A stretch of 64,000 nt of DNA, taken from the sequence record OL615012. One strand, written 5' to 3'. Within the stretch, counting starts at the first letter, position 1, and the number at the start of each line of letters is the position of its first letter. Below, piece by piece: positions 2,429 to 62,661 of the stretch. Below the pieces are notes generated by a model that saw only the letters and a list, made by a program, of their open reading frames with translations, made no database searches and had not been told where the DNA came from. The DNA comes from Shigella phage vB_SboM_Phaginator. Position numbers and translations under genes: made by a program.

Positions 2429-2458
2429 ATTATACCACATCCTTGTGGTAAAGTAAAC
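2429..2458 (-). promoter_or_regulatory. T4-type early promoter
   Basis: Minus strand reads GTTTAC-18 nt-TGGTATAAT; leader then GAGGA and the rIIA.1 ATG. Confidence 0.7.
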
Positions 2459-4278
2459 TACTGGCTCATCCATTCTTTACGAAGGTCAGCATTATCTCCC
2501 ATGAGCATTTCAAAAAGCTCTTTCCAATTCTCAGGAAGTTTAACAACATCATATACTGGGTTCTGAATCATCTCACGATATTCAGATTTTTCCAAAGAGC
2601 CAAGTCCCTTAATATAACGGATGCTATGTTTAGGTAGAGCATCTTTGGCACTCTCATATTCAGCGACTGTATAAAACCATTCTTGTTTTTTACCGACCTG
2701 AGCGATGATTACAGGAGTTTTGACAAAGCGAATTCGTCCTTGCTCAAACAGTTCTGGCCAATTACTAAAAAATCCGAGCAGAGAAGGATAAATGCTTCCT
2801 AAACCATCATGGTCAGCATCGGTCATAATAGCAATATTATGATAATTCAAGTTTTCAGCTTTTTCACCAAGAACTAATCCAGTGATTGCGCAAATATCAA
2901 ATAGTTCTTTGTTTTTAAGCATATCAGCATATGACATACCCCAACTGTTGAGAACTTTACCACGCAATGGATAACCACCATGAAGTTCTTTATCACGAAC
3001 ATCAATAAGATATCCGATAGCAGAATCACCCTCAGTCAAGAAAAGAGTAGTATCAGCATCTTTACCGCAAAGATTAGCTTTAATATGTTTATGAACCTTT
3101 GCCTTAGAAGCCTTTTTAGCTGCTTTAGTTTCTGCTGCTTTTTCTGCCGCTAATTTACGGGCCAAAGCAGCTTCAATAATCGGCATTAAAATTGCTTCAT
3201 TATTTAGAATAGCGCGTGAAATCTTTTTAGCATCAAGCTGAATATGACTACGAATTTCACCAAATGGAGAAGTCAAACGCTCTTTAGTTTGAGAATCAAA
3301 TCGCATGTTTTTCATATCACGAACAAACATAACGATAGTTAAACATTCTTTAACACGTGCTTTAGTCACATCAATTTTGAACTTACGTTTGATTTGTGGA
3401 ATAAGGTCTTCACAAATATCATCCATCACACAGTCAATGTGATGGCCACCATTCTTAGTGTGAATGTTATTCACATAAGTTAATTGGCGAAATCCATCCG
3501 GTGAACGACCAACCGCAATAGAACAATTTTCTTGTTCTTGAACAATAGCATGTTCATCATACTGTCGTGCATATTTCTTAAAATTGCCCTGAACCTTTTT
3601 ACCATTAAAGGTAAATTGAATATCAGGATAAACAACAGCAAGTGTCTGGAGACGATCTAGTGTAATGTCAAGATAAACTTGGGACAGCTCATTAGTTTCA
3701 AATGACATAAAATCAGGAATGAAAGTAACACGGGTTCCTTTCCATTTTCCAGGAATATCTTCCCATGATTTATTTTCCATGCCATTTGAACAACGAACTA
3801 CAATATTATTTTGACCGTCGCCAGTTTCACCGACAAACATCACAGAAAAAATGTTTGTCAAACTAGAACCAACACCGTTCATACCGCCGGTGACGCGTTC
3901 TTTATCATCACCAAAGTTACCACCTGCTTTTGGAATAGTCCACGCAGCAACAGGACCAGGAATTTCTTCACCGGTAGGTGTTTTAACCATCGCTTGTGGA
4001 ATACCACGACCGTTATCTTCAACTGTTACTTGATTGTTTTTGATAGTAACATTAATTTTATTCGCGAATTTAAACTTAGTACGAATACCTTCATCTACTG
4101 AGTTATCGATAATTTCATCAATAAGCTTAACAAGACCAGGTACATACTGAACACTTTCCCATTTACCAAACAGAAAGCGCTCATGCATTTCATTAGCAGA
4201 AGAGCCAATGTACATGCCACTACGCTTTTTGATATGTTCAATATCGCTCAGAATTTTAATTTCATTCTTAATCATCAC
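2458..4278 (-). CDS. 39: DNA topoisomerase II large subunit, single ORF covering T4 gp39 plus gp60
   Basis: 606-aa ORF with GyrB-like N-terminus (GMYIG, EDNGRGIP); T4 splits this into 39 and 60, T2-type phages have ~605-aa fused form. Confidence 0.9.
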   Translation of the reverse strand: MMIKNEIKILSDIEHIKKRSGMYIGSSANEMHERFLFGKWESVQYVPGLVKLIDEIIDNSVDEGIRTKFKFANKINVTIKNNQVTVEDNGRGIPQAMVKTPTGEEIPGPVAAWTIPKAGGNFGDDKERVTGGMNGVGSSLTNIFSVMFVGETGDGQNNIVVRCSNGMENKSWEDIPGKWKGTRVTFIPDFMSFETNELSQVYLDITLDRLQTLAVVYPDIQFTFNGKKVQGNFKKYARQYDEHAIVQEQENCSIAVGRSPDGFRQLTYVNNIHTKNGGHHIDCVMDDICEDLIPQIKRKFKIDVTKARVKECLTIVMFVRDMKNMRFDSQTKERLTSPFGEIRSHIQLDAKKISRAILNNEAILMPIIEAALARKLAAEKAAETKAAKKASKAKVHKHIKANLCGKDADTTLFLTEGDSAIGYLIDVRDKELHGGYPLRGKVLNSWGMSYADMLKNKELFDICAITGLVLGEKAENLNYHNIAIMTDADHDGLGSIYPSLLGFFSNWPELFEQGRIRFVKTPVIIAQVGKKQEWFYTVAEYESAKDALPKHSIRYIKGLGSLEKSEYREMIQNPVYDVVKLPENWKELFEMLMGDNADLRKEWMSQ

Positions 4279-4984: not shown

Positions 4985-5161
4985 TTACCCTTTAAGTAAG
5001 TCGTAAAAACCACCATTCACATGCTTAGGAGCAGAAGGCCGACGAGTAGACAAACGATGACATTTAGGGCAAACATCATTTTCTCGTTCAGAAATCTTTT
5101 TAATTTTTTCATATTCATGCCCACAATCTTCGGATTGGCATTTATAATCATACATTGGCAT
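4985..5161 (-). CDS. small zinc-ribbon protein (FmdB-like)
   Basis: Hand-translated 58-aa ORF MPMYDYKCQSEDCGHEYE...CPKC with two Cys pairs; fills the gap between two ORFs; below the 60-aa track cutoff. Confidence 0.5.
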   Translation of the reverse strand: MPMYDYKCQSEDCGHEYEKIKKISERENDVCPKCHRLSTRRPSAPKHVNGGFYDLLKG

Positions 5162-5163
5162 AA

Positions 5164-5571
5164 TTATTCCTTAAAGTGTGCTTTCAACATCTGATACAAG
5201 GACCATGCCTGTTCATTATTTTCAATAGTAACTTTCATTAAAGGAAAATCAGATGTATCAGTTACTGGTGCAGGTTCTTCAACTTCATCAACGATTGCAT
5301 TTGGGTCTTCAACTTCATCAAAAAACTGTGCATCATCTGCTAAAAGACAAATATAATTTTCACTTAAGATGTCTTCATATAAAAATAGTGTTCCACTAGA
5401 TGTCATAATTTTAGTTGGACTTTGAAGAGAATCAACATCCAAGATTTTAAAAGGATGCATACCTAAGCGCTGTGCATAAGTTCCATTCTCAATGTGGTCT
5501 TTAATAAAAGCTTCTTGGGCTTGTTTATTTTTGAATTGATACCATTTATTAACTTCAAATTTAATAGCCAT
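5164..5571 (-). CDS. hypothetical acidic protein (135 aa), at the T4 goF position
   Basis: ORF-track ORF; position relative to 39 and motB matches goF but sequence not recalled. Confidence 0.55.
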
Positions 5572-5786
5572 TAATAAATTTCCTTCCAGTAAGTTGTACC
5601 GTCTTCAGTGATTTCACGGAATACACCATAAATCGGTTGTTTATCACCAACCTTTTCATACACATAAACCGAAGTCAAGTGAGTAAACTTAATGGTGTGT
5701 TCCTTTTGAACTACTACCAAATCTGGATCGAATAATACATCTTCAAATTCGTCATTAGTACAATTCTGAACAATTTTACGTTTCAT
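5571..5786 (-). CDS. hypothetical protein (71 aa), at the T4 cef position
   Basis: 71-aa ORF, same length as T4 cef as I recall; ATGA-type overlap with the upstream gene. Confidence 0.55.
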
Positions 5787-5799
5787 TACAATTTCCTCA

Positions 5800-6069
5800 T
5801 TAATTGAACAGTGGAGCGATGCGTTTCAGAAGAGTAGCAGCACCTTTGGCGAATTTTACATCATGAAAAACAGTTTCTTCTTCCGTTACAACACGAGCTT
5901 TAATGTTTTCACAATCCCAATTTTTACGAACAATCTTTAAAAGCTGCAGTAAATCTTTACATTCAGCAATATCGATAACACATCCACGAGAATCTTCCAT
6001 TATTGCACGATAACCGTAAGCCATACCATAATCGTTGAAAGATTGTTCGATGATGATTAAGTTTTCCAT
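5800..6069 (-). CDS. hypothetical protein (89 aa)
   Basis: ORF-track ORF trimmed to the ATG after GGAGAATAAA; the track start is a TTG inside the leader. Confidence 0.6.
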   Translation of the reverse strand: MENLIIIEQSFNDYGMAYGYRAIMEDSRGCVIDIAECKDLLQLLKIVRKNWDCENIKARVVTEEETVFHDVKFAKGAATLLKRIAPLFN

Positions 6070-6093
6070 TTTATTCTCCAAGTTGTTTTCTGT

Positions 6094-6136
6094 ATCAGTA
6101 GTTGATATTGATATAGTACCATAATCAACTACTGAT
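6094..6136. repeat. perfect 13-bp inverted repeat (ATCAGTAGTTGAT / ATCAACTACTGAT, 17-bp spacer) over a promoter -10
   Basis: Arms at 6094..6106 and 6124..6136 are exact reverse complements; spacer contains TGGTACTATAT. Confidence 0.6.
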
Positions 6137-6166
6137 GTATATAGTTTTATGAAAAAATTTTAAACT

Positions 6167-6655
6167 TTATGCATAGAGAGCATTGCTATAGTGTTTAATC
6201 CAACTTTCAGGAACGACTTTGTATGTTCCTAAAAATACCACGTTGTACAACTTAACGCCATCTTCTACCCATTGATCGGTAATGTATCCACACATAGCGC
6301 GAGTATAAACAGCCTTTCCATCATCTTTGATAAATTTAAATTCGCAAGGAGCAATGAACTTAATAGCTTGACCGAGTTTCCACTTAAAGTCTACACCTAC
6401 ATGCGAAGTATCAATCGTTTCAATTCCTTTAGCAGGAACAGCTTTCAAAAACGCAGATTCAAGAAATTTCGCACGAACATAGCCAAACTGGGGTTTAGAC
6501 TTTCCATCTTTAGGAATGATACGCACTTTTACTTCAGAATCTTCATCTTTAACACCGTGTTTAAGCTGAATGCTTACAACTTCGACCAATTTTCCTGCTG
6601 CTTTAGAGCGGGATTTATCAGATACACGAGCTAATTCACCAATATTAATAATCAT
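6167..6655 (-). CDS. motB: MotB-like protein (162 aa)
   Basis: 162-aa ORF at the T4 motB position and length; shares a C-terminal motif with the next ORF. Confidence 0.55.
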   Translation of the reverse strand: MIINIGELARVSDKSRSKAAGKLVEVVSIQLKHGVKDEDSEVKVRIIPKDGKSKPQFGYVRAKFLESAFLKAVPAKGIETIDTSHVGVDFKWKLGQAIKFIAPCEFKFIKDDGKAVYTRAMCGYITDQWVEDGVKLYNVVFLGTYKVVPESWIKHYSNALYA

Positions 6656-6699
6656 AGTTATCTCTCACTTGTTAAAAAGATTTTATACTCCACGGGACC

Positions 6700-6729
6700 A
6701 TTATACTCTGGTCCCAAGAGTTTGTAAAC
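6700..6729 (-). promoter_or_regulatory. T4-type early promoter
   Basis: Minus strand GTTTAC-18 nt-(GAG)TATAAT upstream of the motB-like ORF. Confidence 0.6.
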
Positions 6730-7166
6730 TAGCTTACACGAACATTAATCACTGCGCTGCGAGGAACTACAGAGTACTCTCCAGCATGAACTACGTTCAG
6801 AAGTTCAACACCATCTTCAATCCACTGATCAGTCACCCATCCACCCACAGGATTCGCGAATGGACGACGAATATAAACTGCCTTACACAGTAGATCAGTT
6901 GGATCTTCAGGTTTTTCAATTTCTGTCAATAGACTAAAATCTTTTTCATAAATAATAAGCGGTGATACCATTCCATAATAGTTTCTAATTTCAATATACA
7001 TCATACCGATAAGAATTCCGCTATTAACACTAATAACAGTAAAAGGATATCCGCCAGTTAAACCAAGAAGTTCACAAAACTTATTATGAGCTGTATTAGA
7101 CAGTACCGAAAAATTCTTAATTTCATCAAATTTTTTCAATTGATAAACAGCATTATTTTTAATCAT
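6729..7166 (-). CDS. hypothetical protein (145 aa) with MotB-like C-terminal motif
   Basis: C-terminus GGWVTDQWIEDGVELLNVVHAGEYSVVP parallels motB GYITDQWVEDGVKLYNVVFLGTYKVVP. Confidence 0.6.
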   Translation of the reverse strand: MIKNNAVYQLKKFDEIKNFSVLSNTAHNKFCELLGLTGGYPFTVISVNSGILIGMMYIEIRNYYGMVSPLIIYEKDFSLLTEIEKPEDPTDLLCKAVYIRRPFANPVGGWVTDQWIEDGVELLNVVHAGEYSVVPRSAVINVRVS

Positions 7167-7176
7167 AATTTTCTCT

Positions 7177-7680
7177 TTAATCTAAGGTAATAAAGCCTTT
7201 TAATTCGGCATGTGACTTGCGGAACATTACTTGATGCCCACCAATGATAACTTTATCTTCAGGTACTTCGTATACAGCGAGATAAAATCCTTTAGAAGCT
7301 AATTCTTCACGCTCTTCTCGTGTGAACCATCTCATCATATCATATTCACTAGCAAAAGCAAAATGATAAAGAGCTATAAACCATCCTGGAATATAGTGAT
7401 CTACGCCTACATATTCTTCTTTCTCAAAATTAGTATTAATTGTTATATTAGCATTTTTAACTAATAGTTTGTCTTCGTGCGGAAGAGGAATTCTTTTATT
7501 ATCATTACTATGATGCATAAAATTAGGTTTATCATAACCTACGTGTAATAACCACTCTTCGCTCCATGAATCTATTATACTCCTGTATGGCGTTATTTGA
7601 ACACAAAGATCTCGACGTATTGTTATAGCATCTTCATAATTAAGAATACTAAATGATGATTCAACACGATAAATTTTCAT
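7177..7680 (-). CDS. hypothetical protein (167 aa)
   Basis: ORF-track ORF trimmed to the ATG after GAGGATAATAAA; track start is TTG inside the promoter. Confidence 0.6.
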   Translation of the reverse strand: MKIYRVESSFSILNYEDAITIRRDLCVQITPYRSIIDSWSEEWLLHVGYDKPNFMHHSNDNKRIPLPHEDKLLVKNANITINTNFEKEEYVGVDHYIPGWFIALYHFAFASEYDMMRWFTREEREELASKGFYLAVYEVPEDKVIIGGHQVMFRKSHAELKGFITLD

Positions 7681-15008: not shown

Positions 15009-15038
15009 ATTATACCATACTCATTTTGGAAAGTAAAC
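15009..15038 (-). promoter_or_regulatory. T4-type early promoter
   Basis: Minus strand GTTTAC-18 nt-TGGTATAAT. Confidence 0.7.
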
Positions 15039-15046
15039 CAGTAAAA

Positions 15047-15073
15047 TGAAAAAGGACTCCCGAAGGAGTCCTT
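15047..15073 (-). terminator. intrinsic terminator after soc
   Basis: Minus strand AAGGACTCC-UUCG-GGAGUCCUU followed by a U-run. Confidence 0.7.
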
Positions 15074-19511: not shown

Positions 19512-19540
19512 AACAATCTCCTCATTTAACCAACAAGACT

Positions 19541-19570
19541 ACTATACCATAGTCTTGCCAGCTTGTAAAC
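19541..19570 (-). promoter_or_regulatory. T4-type early promoter
   Basis: Minus strand GTTTAC-18 nt-TGGTATAGT, then GAGGAG and the dmd ATG. Confidence 0.65.
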
Positions 19571-24985: not shown

Positions 24986-25222
24986 TCAAATGCAAGTAGT
25001 AATTACTCCAGTAGTGCTTATGCAGGTATTACCCATTTGCACACCTAAAGATCCATTTGTATTCACATGAAGATTATCATCAATTTTAACTGATATTTTA
25101 CCATTAGTGTGAATAACGGTGCTAGATTCAATCACAGGTTGAGTATCATTTTCAACACTAACAAATGGAACTGCTGCTAATGCAACTAAACAAACTGCTA
25201 AGCATCCCATAACAATTTTCAT
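24986..25222 (-). CDS. secreted small protein (78 aa)
   Basis: Trimmed to the ATG after GGAGAATAAA; signal peptide MKIVMGCLAVCLVALAAVPFVS. Confidence 0.6.
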   Translation of the reverse strand: MKIVMGCLAVCLVALAAVPFVSVENDTQPVIESSTVIHTNGKISVKIDDNLHVNTNGSLGVQMGNTCISTTGVITTCI

Positions 25223-25259: not shown

Positions 25260-25289
25260 ATAGTACCATGGAAGAACAGTCTTGTAAAC
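25260..25289 (-). promoter_or_regulatory. T4-type early promoter (TACTAT -10) with conserved leader
   Basis: Minus strand GTTTAC-18 nt-TGGTACTATA then leader CAACTATCAACTACTGATACAGATTTGGAGAATAAAATG. Confidence 0.6.
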
Positions 25290-25371
25290 AGTTTTGTGAA
25301 AATTTTTTAGGGAATTCTAAAGGTCCAGAATCATCTGTTTTTCATAAGTATAGATTTATATTACTTGTATG

Positions 25372-25392
25372 AAAAAGGGACCCGGAGGTCCC
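25372..25392 (-). terminator. intrinsic terminator after gene 43
   Basis: Minus strand GGGACC-UCCG-GGUCCC followed by UUUUU. Confidence 0.7.
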
Positions 25393-25405
25393 TAGATTTG
25401 TTCTA

Positions 25406-40770: not shown

Positions 40771-42584
40771 TGGTGTTTAACCCTATGCATGATTTCTTTA
40801 TTTTTACCGAGATTAAATCCGCGCTCGTTCGGATTTCCCAAATAACCGCATGTTCTTCTTATGGTATTCATCTTTTTAGGATCAGTTTCTCCACAAATAG
40901 AACAAACAAATCCGTTTTCAGTAGGAGTCATTTCATGGGTACTTCCACACGTAAAACATTTATCTACTGGCATGTTAACACCAAAATAATCTAAATGCTG
41001 TGCAGCATAATCCCATACGGCCTCAAGACCTTTTAGATTATTTTTCATATCAGGAAGTTCAACATAAGAAATGTGACCACCTGTCGCAATGAAATGATAT
41101 GGCGCTTCACGAGAAATCTTTTCAAACGGAGTAATATTTTCTTCTACTGAAACATGGAAACTATTAGTGTACCAGCCTTTATCAGTAACATCTTTTACGC
41201 TTCCATATTTTTCTGTATCAAGTTTACAGAAGCGATAACAAAGGTTTTCAGCAGGAGTAGAATACAAGCTAAAAGCAAATCCGGTTCTTTCAGTCCACTG
41301 TTTAAGACGAGCATTCATTTTAGTTAAAATTTCTTGTCCAATATCACGACCGACAAGAATATTCAATTCGTGAATACCAATGTATCCTAGAGACACTGAA
41401 CTTCTGCCATTTTTAAATAACTCAATTATATCGTCATCAGGTTTAAGACGAACCCCGAATGCACCTTCTTGGTAAAGAATAGGAGCAACAGTCGCTTTAA
41501 CTCCTTTTAAGGAACTAATTCTACACATCAAAGCTTCAAAACATAAATCCATTCGTTCATTGAATAATTCAACAAATTTCTGTTCATTGAATTGTGTTCC
41601 AATATAAGAATCTAATGCGATACGAGGAAGATTCAGTGTTACAACACCGAGATTATTACGTCCATCAAGAATTTCATTGCCAGTCGAATCTTTCCATACA
41701 CTCAAGAAACTGCGGCAACCCATTGGAGAAACAGGAATAGATGAACCAGTGATAGCTTTATTGTTCTTAGCTGAAATAATATCAGGATACATCCTTTTGC
41801 TTGCACACTCTAGAGCAAGCTGTTTAATATCATAGTTCGGATCGTCTTTGTAAAGATTAACACCTTCTTCAACGAACATAACAAGCTTAGGGAAAATAGG
41901 AGTTATCCCATCACGACCAAGACCTTTAATGCGATTTTTCAGAATTGCTTTCTGAATCATTCGTTCAGTCCAGTCAGTTCCCGTACCAAATGTAATTGTT
42001 ACAAAAGGCGTTTGTCCGTTTGAACTAAAGAGAGTATTTACTTCATATTCATAAGCTTGGAATGCATCGTATACGTCTTTTTCTGTTTTAGATTGAGCAT
42101 AATTCAACGCATCAGCGATTTGCCATTTTTCTGCATCCTCAATATGTTTTGCATAGGTGCGTTTAACATAAGGAGAAAGTACTTTATCTACATTCGCAAA
42201 AGTCGTTCCGCCATATTGATGGGAAGCAACTTGCGCAGTAATTTGTGCCATAATTGCAGTAGCAACGCCAATTGATTTAGGAGTTTCAATCTGCGCATTA
42301 CCAAGCTTAAATCCGTTCTCAAGCATTCCTTTTAAATCTACTAAACAGCAATTAGTAAATGGAAGAGCAGGGGAATAATCAATATCATGGAAATGAATAA
42401 TTCCGCTTTCATGCGCTTTCATAATAAAAGACGGGACCATATTTTTGGCAATGTGTTTAGACACAATACCAGCCATAAGGTCCCGTTGAGTTGGAAAAAC
42501 ACGAGAATCTTTATTAGCATTCTCGTTTAAAAGGTCTTTATTAGTTTTATGAATCAATCCTTCAATTTCTTTTTCAATTGTCAT
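40767..42584 (-). CDS. nrdD: anaerobic ribonucleoside-triphosphate reductase NrdD, uninterrupted
   Basis: 605-aa continuous ORF with C-terminal zinc ribbon CFTCGS...CSICG; T4 NrdD is 605 aa from two exons. Confidence 0.9.
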   Translation of the reverse strand: MTIEKEIEGLIHKTNKDLLNENANKDSRVFPTQRDLMAGIVSKHIAKNMVPSFIMKAHESGIIHFHDIDYSPALPFTNCCLVDLKGMLENGFKLGNAQIETPKSIGVATAIMAQITAQVASHQYGGTTFANVDKVLSPYVKRTYAKHIEDAEKWQIADALNYAQSKTEKDVYDAFQAYEYEVNTLFSSNGQTPFVTITFGTGTDWTERMIQKAILKNRIKGLGRDGITPIFPKLVMFVEEGVNLYKDDPNYDIKQLALECASKRMYPDIISAKNNKAITGSSIPVSPMGCRSFLSVWKDSTGNEILDGRNNLGVVTLNLPRIALDSYIGTQFNEQKFVELFNERMDLCFEALMCRISSLKGVKATVAPILYQEGAFGVRLKPDDDIIELFKNGRSSVSLGYIGIHELNILVGRDIGQEILTKMNARLKQWTERTGFAFSLYSTPAENLCYRFCKLDTEKYGSVKDVTDKGWYTNSFHVSVEENITPFEKISREAPYHFIATGGHISYVELPDMKNNLKGLEAVWDYAAQHLDYFGVNMPVDKCFTCGSTHEMTPTENGFVCSICGETDPKKMNTIRRTCGYLGNPNERGFNLGKNKEIMHRVKHQ

Positions 42585-51626: not shown

Positions 51627-51656
51627 ATAGTACCATAAAGCTTTATGCTTGTAAAC
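51627..51656 (-). promoter_or_regulatory. T4-type early promoter (TACTAT -10) with conserved leader
   Basis: Minus strand GTTTAC-18 nt-TGGTACTATACAACTATCAACTGATACGGATTTGGAGAATAAAATG. Confidence 0.6.
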
Positions 51657-51680
51657 TGTTTTGTGAAAAATTTTTGAAAT

Positions 51681-51705
51681 AAAAAAAGGGAGCCCGAAGG
51701 CTCCC
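51681..51705 (-). terminator. intrinsic terminator
   Basis: Minus strand GGGAGCC-UUCG-GGCUCCC followed by UUUUUUU. Confidence 0.75.
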
Positions 51706-54359: not shown

Positions 54360-54386
54360 TCTCTTCTCCTTGACAGTTGACAAGAT

Positions 54387-54416
54387 TACTATACCATAAC
54401 CTTGCCAACTTGTAAA
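54387..54416 (-). promoter_or_regulatory. T4-type early promoter
   Basis: Minus strand GTTTAC-18 nt-TGGTATAGT. Confidence 0.6.
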
Positions 54417-54419
54417 CCA

Positions 54420-55199: not shown

Positions 55200-55229
55200 A
55201 TAGTACCACGGCTCAAACAGAAAGTAAAC
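55200..55229 (-). promoter_or_regulatory. T4-type early promoter (TACTAT -10)
   Basis: Minus strand GTTTAC-18 nt-TGGTACTATACAACCATCGG. Confidence 0.6.
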
Positions 55230-55240
55230 CGGTAAAATGA

Positions 55241-55261
55241 AAAAAGTCTCCCGAAGGAGAC
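55241..55261 (-). terminator. intrinsic terminator
   Basis: Minus strand GUCUCC-UUCG-GGAGAC followed by UUUUUU. Confidence 0.7.
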
Positions 55262-59399: not shown

Positions 59400-59429
59400 T
59401 TATACCACAGTCAAGAGGAAAAGTAAACA
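59400..59429 (-). promoter_or_regulatory. T4-type early promoter
   Basis: Minus strand GTTTAC-18 nt-TGGTATAAT, then GAGGAG and the regB ATG. Confidence 0.7.
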
Positions 59430-62631: not shown

Positions 62632-62661
62632 ATAGTATCAAAACCCTTGGAGGAAGTAAAC
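62632..62661 (-). promoter_or_regulatory. T4-type early promoter upstream of the denV remnant
   Basis: Minus strand GTTTAC-18 nt-TACTAT, then GGAGG and the remnant ATG. Confidence 0.55.

What the first reader, a model, noticed from the sequence alone, without database searches (positions are those of the whole stretch)
6094..6136. Perfect 13-bp inverted repeat straddling a promoter -10 element
ATCAGTAGTTGAT and its exact reverse complement flank a 17-bp spacer containing TGGTACTATAT, upstream of the 5800..6069 ORF. In four other copies of this promoter-leader cassette the first arm is followed by a GTTTAC -35 element instead of the second arm. This copy therefore looks like a derived palindrome, possibly an operator or an RNA hairpin that occludes the promoter or leader.
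Basis: seen in the sequence. Interest (0 to 1): 0.35.

Follow-up and report, generated by a model that had tools for sequence, protein, structure and literature searches.

The report
Early promoter nested inside a hairpin
The palindrome is real and conserved: it is a T4-type early promoter sitting in the loop of a stem-loop that forms only in RNA reading through from the upstream gene motB. This is a known kind of promoter/stem-loop cassette (PeSL) in T4-like phages, not a repressor operator.

Summary
The perfect 13-bp inverted repeat (6094-6106 / 6124-6136) is there. The window is a Tequatrovirus, and genes here run on the minus strand.

In that orientation:
- The upstream arm fills the -35/-10 spacer of a sigma-70 early promoter (TATACA, 17 nt, TGG TACTAT).
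- The -10 lies in the loop.
- The downstream arm starts at the predicted +1 of the leader of a small ORF (phrog_3720) between motB and cef.

T4 itself carries the identical palindrome, and the 59-nt core is identical in 430 of 533 phage records.

In at least five other Tevenvirinae genera, the promoter in front of cef is wrapped in a hairpin at the same place with different arm sequences. Seven of 14 pairs show compensatory changes. This points to nucleic-acid pairing rather than a protein operator.

Read-through RNA folds at -20.2 kcal/mol (z -5.6). RNA started at the nested promoter is unstructured. The hairpin has no U-tract and does not cover the ribosome-binding site, so its precise role is inferred: a boundary, attenuator or 3'-stabiliser for motB RNA.

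It meets the sequence criteria of the published PeSL cassettes (Arbiol 2010; Comeau 2014).

A wider pattern appeared. Early-promoter spacers are specifically complementary to their own leaders, often to the Shine-Dalgarno sequence.

The parts
6143..6166 (-). A/T-rich tract (AGTTTAAAATTTTTTCATAAAACT) directly after the motB stop codon (6169-6167). It is in the UP-element position of the promoter.
   Evidence: Sequence read. It is similar to the same tract in the paralogous cassettes at 25289 and 51656.
6136..6141 (-). -35 hexamer TATACA. It matches the T4-type TTTACA at 5 of 6 positions and TTGACA at 4 of 6. Its last A is also the first base of the upstream arm.
   Evidence: The same TATACA/TGTACA -35 sits in front of cef in Dhakavirus and Mosigvirus.
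6124..6136 (-). Upstream (5') arm ATCAGTAGTTGAT. It occupies the promoter spacer and is transcribed only by polymerases arriving from motB.
   Evidence: It is unique to this copy of the cassette family.
6107..6123 (-). Loop TATGGTACTATATCAAT, holding the extended -10 (TGG 6121-6119, TACTAT 6118-6113). An inner 5-bp stem pairs UGGUA (6121-6117) with UAUCA (6113-6109).
   Evidence: TGG-TACTAT is the -10 of six other early promoters in the window.
6094..6106 (-). Downstream (3') arm ATCAACTACTGAT. The predicted transcription start (7 nt after the -10) is at about 6106, so this arm is the first 13 nt of the promoter's own transcript.
   Evidence: It is identical at 25253-25241 and near-identical at 50181-50169. 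The start site is inferred from spacing and was not measured.
6067..6093 (-). Unstructured A/C-rich linker, Shine-Dalgarno GGAG (6079-6076) and ATG (6069-6067) of the downstream ORF.
   Evidence: Repeat family D9 shares this leader with the copies at 25212 and 51582.
5800..6069 (-). The 89-aa ORF served by the promoter (PHROG 3720, function unknown), followed by cef (5571-5786). In T4 this ORF is reduced to an 11-codon remnant.
6167..6655 (-). motB, the upstream gene whose transcripts read into the hairpin. Its own promoter is at 6729-6700.
   Evidence: No terminator-like site lies between them on the minus strand.

Best explanation
This is a composite promoter/stem-loop cassette of the PeSL type, sitting between motB and the next early genes.

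**Anatomy**
- The DNA encodes a strong-looking sigma-70 early promoter: A/T tract, TATACA, 17 nt, TGG-TACTAT.
- The two sequence-free parts of that promoter, the spacer and the first 13 transcribed bases, have been made complementary to each other.

**How it works**
- RNA polymerase coming from the motB promoter transcribes both arms. The read-through RNA therefore folds into an 18-bp interrupted hairpin (-20 kcal/mol) right after the motB stop codon.
- Polymerase starting at the nested promoter begins at the first base of the 3' arm and makes an unstructured, freely translatable leader.
- The hairpin thus marks the end of the motB message and separates it from the downstream unit. It most likely acts as an attenuator or pause, as a block to 3' exonucleases after endonucleolytic cutting in the A-rich linker or GGAG, or as both. 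The promoter in its loop restarts transcription.

**Shown versus inferred**
- Shown: the sequence anatomy, the predicted folds, conservation, and covariation across genera.
- Inferred: promoter activity, the start site, and the molecular role of the hairpin.
For: - **Anatomy and promoter match:**
- **Folds:** read-through RNA -20.2 kcal/mol, z -5.6, 0 of 200 shuffles as good. Own transcript -0.9 kcal/mol, z +1.4.
- **Conservation within the genus:** identical palindrome in T4 at NC_000866.4 6582-6624. The 59-nt core is 100% identical in 430 of 533 phage records. The variants I inspected change only the flanks.
- **Same architecture elsewhere:** the cef promoter in Dhakavirus, Mosigvirus, Moonvirus, Kagamiyamavirus and Klebsiella T4-likes has a hairpin enclosing the -10, with different arms.
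- **Covariation:** on an ungapped 16-sequence alignment, 76% of cells pair and 7 of 14 pairs carry compensatory double changes. The covariation score is 0.323 against 0.133 in shuffles (0 of 500 as high) and at most 0.133 in slid controls.
- **Independence from the promoter:** Gaprivervirus keeps a 10-bp hairpin at this spot although the -10 is gone, so the hairpin has a role of its own.
- **Class-level pattern:** among 19 early promoters in the window, the spacer is specifically complementary to its own leader (mean -11.9 against -7.8 kcal/mol for non-cognate pairs, 0 of 20,000 permutations as low, 10 of 19 rank first). Sense RNA pairs better than antisense (Wilcoxon p = 0.049). The result replicates in RB69 (p = 0.0003).
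- **Literature:** PeSLs are defined as an A/T tract, sigma-70 promoter, stem-loop and SD. The stem-loop most often lies between -35 and -10 or overlaps the -10. One such stem-loop cut reporter expression as strongly as rrnB T1 (PMC2839356). The T4/PST PeSL promoter consensus is TTTACW-N17-TAYWAT (PMC4122927).
Against: - There is no U-tract after the stem (ACAGAAAAC follows), only 4 of the 13 outer pairs are G-C, and no terminator-like site was called. Efficient intrinsic termination is therefore unlikely.
- No 5' or 3' end data for this locus were found.
- At this locus the G-U versus A-C count outside the fixed promoter elements is 8 against 10, so RNA cannot be separated from single-stranded DNA pairing.
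- The promoter scores only 8 of 12 against the plain sigma-70 consensus, and a simple scan missed it.
- For T4/PST, the PeSL authors drew the stem-loops just upstream of the promoter, not around the -10.
Confidence: 0.6

Rival explanations
1. Translational discrimination, as at T4 e, soc, 49 and I-TevI. The hairpin in read-through RNA lowers translation of the downstream ORF, so that the ORF is expressed only from its own early promoter.
For: - The nested-promoter geometry is the same as in those known cases (PMC3014915 section 29).
- In sibling promoters of this window the spacer pairs with the Shine-Dalgarno itself: 62661 has a perfect 10 bp, 59428 has 13 bp, and 50217, 7737 and 55229 also pair. 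Predicted SD accessibility in those drops in read-through RNA.
- RB69 7428 has a perfect 12-bp spacer/SD repeat.
- In other genera the cef hairpin ends only 3-9 nt before the SD.
Against: - Here the stem ends 15 nt before GGAG. Predicted SD/AUG accessibility barely changes (0.50 against 0.62).
- Gaprivervirus has the hairpin but no nested promoter, so cef there must be translated from hairpin-bearing RNA.
Confidence: 0.15
2. A DNA-level element: a cruciform or hairpin in single-stranded DNA that serves recombination and cassette shuffling, or that modulates the promoter with supercoiling.
For: - PeSLs are proposed recombination points, with one crossover mapped inside the loop (PMC2839356).
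- The locus borders an indel: the ORF is present here and deleted in T4.
- Phage Pinarejo carries the same arms with the 17-bp loop inverted.
- The arms here are perfect Watson-Crick, so both strands fold about equally (-20.2 against -18.0 kcal/mol).
Against: - Across the window's promoters, pairing is clearly better in the sense strand. A cruciform would not show this.
- The T4 deletion end-points lie in the ORF, not in the palindrome.
- The loop flip is seen in only 1-2 of about 498 records and could be an assembly artefact.
Confidence: 0.1
3. An operator: a dimeric phage or host protein binds the two 13-bp half-sites and shuts the promoter.
For: The site has perfect dyad symmetry centred on the -10. 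Early promoters are switched off within minutes of infection.
Against: - The arm sequences differ completely between genera while staying complementary, with single compensatory steps between close relatives (L031 against L033).
- The T4 reviews I read describe no sequence-specific repressor of early promoters. The MotB paper's abstract characterises MotB only as a DNA-binding protein. From my own recollection, not checked here, its binding is not sequence-specific.
- Many unrelated arm pairs occur at other early promoters in the same genome.
Confidence: 0.05
4. No function. The palindrome is a by-product of a templated (strand-switch) mutation in a repeated cassette and persists because the genus is young.
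For: - The spacer arm is a perfect copy of the leader's complement and has no resemblance to the paralogues' spacers. That fits a single templated event.
- Within Tequatrovirus the whole promoter region is invariant, so arm-specific constraint cannot be shown.
- The chance expectation in one window is not negligible.
Against: Independent hairpins sit at the orthologous site in at least five other genera with compensatory changes. Cognate-specific complementarity holds genome-wide in two genera.
Confidence: 0.1

Closest known systems
PeSL (promoter-early stem-loop) cassettes of T4-like phages (Arbiol et al. 2010, PMC2839356; Comeau et al. 2014, PMC4122927)
   Same: It has an A/T-rich tract, a sigma-70 early promoter with a 17-nt spacer, a stem-loop, then SD and start codon. 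It is intergenic, in a hyperplastic region, next to an indel between close relatives. It is repeated in the genome with about 70-80% similarity. In RB49/phi1 the commonest stem-loop positions are between -35 and -10 or overlapping the -10, as here.
   Different: The RB49 stems are G-run/C-run. For T4/PST the published figure places the stem-loops just upstream of the promoter, with AGNA/TCNT stems. Here the stem is A/U-rich and 13+5 bp, encloses the -10, and lacks any U-tract. I could not check whether this copy is in their list because the figures and supplements are not held.
T4 e, soc, 49 and I-TevI leader hairpins with a nested late promoter (reviewed in PMC3014915, section 29)
   Same: The promoter lies inside the region encoding the 5' strand of a hairpin. 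Long upstream transcripts fold, and transcripts from the nested promoter do not.
   Different: In those cases the 3' strand contains the SD or AUG and the nested promoter is a late one (TATAAATA). Here the nested promoter is an early sigma-70 type and the SD is outside the stem.
Intercistronic hairpins that stabilise the upstream mRNA segment or are processing sites, such as the T7 early RNase III sites (named from memory as a lead, not tested)
   Same: It is a hairpin between cistrons of a polycistronic early transcript. It has about 18 bp with a 2x2 internal loop, followed by a single-stranded A-rich linker and a GGAG that is a candidate RegB site.
   Different: No cleavage data exist. The hairpins at the orthologous site in other genera are only 8-14 bp. 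No promoter is nested in the T7 sites.
Intrinsic (Rho-independent) terminators paired with promoters, as at 55259-55229, 51690-51656 and 15068-15038 in this window
   Same: They occupy the same genomic niche, between an upstream early gene and the next early promoter.
   Different: Those have G+C-rich stems followed by T5-7 that merges into the UP tract. The present hairpin has neither.

Membership tests
PeSL cassette | A/T-rich tract upstream of the -35 | tested here: met
   AGTTTAAAATTTTTTCATAAAACT at 6166-6143.
PeSL cassette | Sigma-70-like early promoter; T4/PST consensus TTTACW-N17-TAYWAT | tested here: met
   TATACA-N17-TACTAT with TGG at -15 to -13. There is one mismatch in the -35. This is a sequence match only.
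PeSL cassette | Sequence able to form a stable stem-loop in or next to the promoter (five positional subclasses, including overlapping the -10) | tested here: met
   -20.2 kcal/mol, z -5.6. The arms lie in the spacer and at +1 to +13. The subclass is described.
PeSL cassette | Shine-Dalgarno and start codon of the downstream gene at the 3' end | tested here: met
   GGAG at 6079-6076 and ATG at 6069-6067.
PeSL cassette | Repeated in the genome, located in a hyperplastic region, next to gene-content differences between close relatives | tested here: met
   Repeat families D1, D2 and D9. The downstream ORF is present here and deleted in T4.
PeSL cassette | Promoter is active early, and the stem-loop attenuates or terminates upstream transcription | not testable with these tools
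   No transcript-end data were found. The absence of a U-tract argues against strong intrinsic termination.
RBS-sequestering hairpin with nested promoter (T4 e/soc/49/I-TevI type) | Nested promoter starts transcription downstream of the 5' strand | tested here: met
   The predicted +1 at about 6106 is the first base of the 3' arm. This is inferred from spacing.
RBS-sequestering hairpin with nested promoter (T4 e/soc/49/I-TevI type) | SD and/or AUG lie inside the helix | tested here: not met
   The stem ends at 6094 and GGAG starts at 6079. Unpaired probability is 0.50 against 0.62.
Intrinsic terminator | G+C-rich stem immediately followed by a U-tract | tested here: not met
   Only 4 of 13 pairs are G-C and the tail is ACAGAAAAC. 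No site was called.
Palindromic protein operator | Half-site sequence conserved among relatives that share the regulator | tested here: not met
   The arms differ between genera but stay complementary, and 7 of 14 pairs have compensatory changes.
Rfam RNA families | Match to a curated covariance model | tested here: not met
   Only two chance-level hits (E 0.6-0.7), far below the gathering scores.

The most novel reading that the evidence does not exclude
The palindrome may be one visible case of a genome-wide rule in T4-like phages. Under this rule, the otherwise free spacer of each early promoter is tuned to pair with that promoter's own leader, and in about a third of cases with the Shine-Dalgarno itself. 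RNA arriving from upstream promoters would then be folded and handled differently (translation, cleavage, decay) from RNA born at the local promoter. That would be a transcript-origin code extending the e/soc/49 principle from a few late genes to the early regulon. It might also explain part of the extra 'consensus' seen in T4 early-promoter spacers. Neither the PeSL papers nor the 2010 T4 reviews I could read mention SD masking at early promoters.
Probability: 0.3. Interest if true: 0.55.

Novelty: new member of a known kind. Interest (0 to 1): 0.33.

Why it matters
For this locus alone the result is modest. It gives a well-founded annotation (nested early promoter plus conserved boundary hairpin between motB and cef) for a stretch that is unannotated in T4 and about 500 related genomes. 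It also removes the operator idea.

The wider pattern is worth a direct test. If promoter spacers are systematically complementary to their own leaders, read-through and locally initiated early transcripts in T4 are functionally different molecules. This bears on two old questions: how immediate-early and delayed-early expression are separated, and why T4 early promoters share sequence beyond the polymerase contact elements. It would also matter for phage engineering, because moving a promoter away from its leader would change expression.

Tried and rejected
- **Rfam scan of 5700-6800:** only chance-level hits.
- **Terminator and promoter consensus scan:** no terminator at the site, and the promoter falls below the plain 9-of-12 threshold.
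- **Strand test at the cef locus (G-U against A-C):** inconclusive once pairs involving the fixed TGn and -10 bases are removed (8 against 10).
- **First RB69 replicate:** a strict promoter pattern found only 6 promoters and had no power (p = 0.22). A looser pattern gave 15 promoters and p = 0.0003.
- **Upstream tandem promoter (GTTTAA...TATATA) that would put the hairpin at a 5' end:** rejected, because T4 has 2 fewer bases in the A/T tract than the window and the -10 lacks the final T.
- **MotA-box middle promoter:** no TGCTT near -30, and no middle promoter is listed near T4 6.6 kb.
- **Chimeric origin (motB side orthologous to Dhakavirus, leader side from the cassette):** similarities were too even to decide.
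- **Literature:**
  - The T4 genome review (PMC150520) is not held.
  - The complete T4 records carry no promoter features.
  - The PeSL paper has no held supplements.
  - A 2026 preprint on promoter-terminator coupling in bacteria was found but could not be opened.
  - No T4 transcript-end map covering this locus was found.

Full report
**What the window is.** It is a Tequatrovirus (T4-like) genome segment, about 94% identical over 5000-7500 to phages such as FelixPlatter and the slur phages. The genes around the finding run on the minus strand:
- the topoisomerase large subunit (2458-4278)
- goF (5164-5571)
- cef (5571-5786; Pfam T4_Cef)
- an 89-aa ORF (5800-6069; PHROG 3720, function unknown)
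- motB (6167-6655; Pfam motB)

**The observation.**
- ATCAGTAGTTGAT (6094-6106) and its exact complement (6124-6136) flank 17 nt. The repeat extends imperfectly to 20 nt per arm.
- It is the only perfect inverted repeat of 13 nt or more with a loop of 30 nt or less in the window. Such a repeat turns up in 9% of dinucleotide shuffles, so alone it is only suggestive.

**Anatomy on the coding (minus) strand**, in order:
- motB stop codon (6169-6167)
- A/T tract (6166-6143)
- TATACA (6141-6136)
- a 17-nt spacer whose first 12 bases, together with the last A of the -35, form the upstream arm
- TGG (6121-6119)
- TACTAT (6118-6113)
- ATCAAT
- the downstream arm (6106-6094)
- ACAGAAAACAACTT
- GGAG (6079-6076)
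- ATG (6069)

With the usual 7-nt distance, transcription should start at about 6106, the first base of the downstream arm. This start site is an inference from spacing.

**Paralogues.**
- The window holds about 19 T4-type early promoters on this strand.
- Four of them form a cassette family with the present one.
- The UP tract, TGG-TACTAT, the leader ATCAACTACTGATACAG and the SD-ATG are shared. The copy at 25289 is the closest.
- The spacer is unrelated to the other copies, and the -35 has two changes relative to GTTTAC.
- The leader arm is therefore the family-conserved part and the spacer arm is the derived part.

**Relatives within the genus.**
- T4 has the identical 43-bp palindrome at NC_000866.4 6582-6624. 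It sits in front of an 11-codon remnant of the ORF and then cef.
- The 59-nt core is 100% identical in 430 of 533 phage records.
- The variants I fetched differ only in the flanks.
- The element is therefore old within the genus. Because the whole promoter is invariant, arm-specific constraint cannot be read from Tequatrovirus alone.

**Other genera.** I anchored on MotB and Cef and looked at the promoter directly in front of cef in these groups:
- Dhakavirus (IME08)
- Mosigvirus (ATK47, AV113, RB69)
- Moonvirus (Merlin, Moon)
- Kagamiyamavirus (EcS1)
- Klebsiella T4-likes

In all of them the promoter has a hairpin enclosing its TGn/-10. The arms differ between groups:
- GGTAGGGTA / TACCCTATC
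- GGTCTAT / ATAGACC
- GGGCTAT / ATAGCCC
- GGTAGGAGCAT / ATGTTCCTACC
- GTGTAGGAACA / TGTTCCTACAC

These are shown. An ungapped alignment of 16 such sequences gave the following for the 14-pair helix:
- 76% of cells are paired.
- 7 pairs have changes on both sides (30 cells).
- The covariation score is 0.323, against 0.133 in column shuffles (0 of 500 as high) and at most 0.133 when partners are slid.

Gaprivervirus keeps a 10-bp hairpin at the same spot although no -10 is recognisable. In Tequatrovirus the helix axis is shifted 2.5 nt downstream, so it is a different solution to the same design. This is base-pair conservation, not half-site conservation, and it argues strongly against a protein operator.

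**Folding.**
- The read-through RNA (6144-6086, minus strand) folds into 13 bp, a 2x2 internal loop and 5 bp at -20.2 kcal/mol (z -5.6).
- The antisense strand gives -18.0 kcal/mol.
- RNA starting at 6106 is unstructured: -0.9 kcal/mol, z +1.4.
- The stem stops 15 nt before GGAG. Predicted accessibility of the SD/AUG is 0.50 in read-through RNA and 0.62 in own RNA, so masking of the ribosome-binding site is not predicted here.
- No U-tract follows, and no terminator-like site was called.

**A wider pattern.** For the 19 promoters I computed the best duplex between the -35-plus-spacer segment and the leader:
- Cognate pairs average -11.9 kcal/mol and non-cognate pairs -7.8.
- None of 20,000 permutations was as low, and 10 of 19 cognate pairs rank first.
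- In five or six promoters (62661, 59428, 55229, 50217, 7737, and weakly 15038) the 3' arm is the Shine-Dalgarno itself.
- In four (this one, the motB promoter at 6729, 54417 and 19570) it is the start-site region.
- Sense-strand pairing is stronger than antisense (mean -11.9 against -9.5, p = 0.049), and by 4-10 kcal/mol in seven of the nine strongest. This favours RNA or sense-strand pairing over a cruciform or protein site.
- The cognate effect replicates in RB69: 15 promoters, p = 0.0003, including a perfect 12-bp spacer/SD repeat at 7428.
- Only three or four promoters have a classical G+C hairpin plus T-run upstream.

**Interpretation.**
- The element meets every sequence-level criterion of the PeSL cassettes described for T4-like phages. 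Their authors state that the stem-loop most often lies between -35 and -10 or overlaps the -10, and they propose it attenuates transcription from upstream. One RB49 stem-loop reduced reporter expression as much as rrnB T1.
- The geometry also parallels the T4 e/soc/49/I-TevI hairpins, in which a nested promoter yields transcripts lacking the 5' strand. The SD-in-helix feature of those hairpins is not met here.
- My best reading is a boundary hairpin formed only in motB read-through RNA, with the downstream unit's promoter nested in its loop.
- Whether it pauses or attenuates polymerase, protects the motB 3' end after cleavage in the A-rich linker or at GGAG (RegB is known to cut early SD sequences), or is itself a processing site cannot be decided without transcript-end data.
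- Placing the arms in the spacer and the initial transcribed region uses the only unconstrained positions of a promoter in very short intergenic gaps. That may be why they interleave.

**Verdict.**
- The feature is real and under selection, but it belongs to a kind already described, so interest for the locus itself is low to moderate.
- The genome-wide spacer-leader complementarity, including SD masking at early promoters, is the part I could not find in the papers available to me. It deserves an experimental test.

Noticed in passing
L042 (Escherichia phage Pinarejo PP925831.1 5886-5944), orthologous to window 6086-6144: The arms are the same 13 bp but the 17-bp loop is inverted relative to the window, T4 and about 496 other records. 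The flipped form still reads TATACA-17 nt-TGA TATAGT on the coding strand, so an extended -10 survives at the same position. This could be an inverted-repeat-mediated flip or an assembly artefact. Only 1-2 of about 498 records show it.
   Followed up: partly
window 6109-6117, + strand: Because the loop is quasi-palindromic, the opposite strand carries TGATATAGT. This is an extended -10-like motif pointing antisense into motB, with a poor -35 (TCTGTA).
   Followed up: no
window, minus strand promoters at 62661, 59428, 55229, 50217, 7737 (and RB69 L047 7428): The -35/-10 spacer is complementary to the promoter's own Shine-Dalgarno. Examples are TTCCTCCAAG / CTTGGAGGAA at 62661 and a 13-bp duplex with two G-U pairs at 59428. 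Read-through RNA would mask the ribosome-binding site while locally initiated RNA would not.
   Followed up: partly
window 6694-6729, minus strand: The motB promoter itself (GTTTAC, 18 nt, TATAAT) has a G+C inverted repeat, GGGACC (6715-6710) / GGTCCC (6699-6694), flanking its -10. The duplex extends to -19.5 kcal/mol.
   Followed up: partly
window 5800-6069 versus T4 L001 2540-2575: The 89-aa ORF (PHROG 3720) between motB and cef is intact here and in many Tequatroviruses. In T4 it is reduced to an 11-codon remnant, while the promoter, leader, SD and ATG are kept. The deletion junction lies at a short GAAAAT/C repeat.
   Followed up: partly
window 19533-19570 and 54380-54417: These two paralogous promoters carry hairpins around the -10 (CAAGACTA / TAGTCTTG and CAAGGTTA / TAATCTTG). 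Their differences are G-U compatible only in the sense RNA: -16.3 and -16.9 kcal/mol sense against -8.5 and -10.4 antisense.
   Followed up: partly
window 55229-55259, 51656-51690, 15038-15068, about 25370-25395: Classical G+C hairpins followed by T5-7 sit directly upstream of early promoters. These are terminator-then-promoter cassettes of the layout drawn for T4/PST PeSLs. They contrast with the interleaved layout at 6094-6136.
   Followed up: no
window 2458-4278: The topoisomerase large-subunit ORF is a single 606-aa reading frame, like RB69 '60plus39', rather than the split genes 39 and 60 of T4.
   Followed up: no
window 40983-40995 / 41032-41044: This is the only other perfect 13-nt inverted repeat within 60 nt in the window (AAAATAATCTAAA / TTTAGATTATTTT). 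It is very A/T-rich and was not examined.
   Followed up: no
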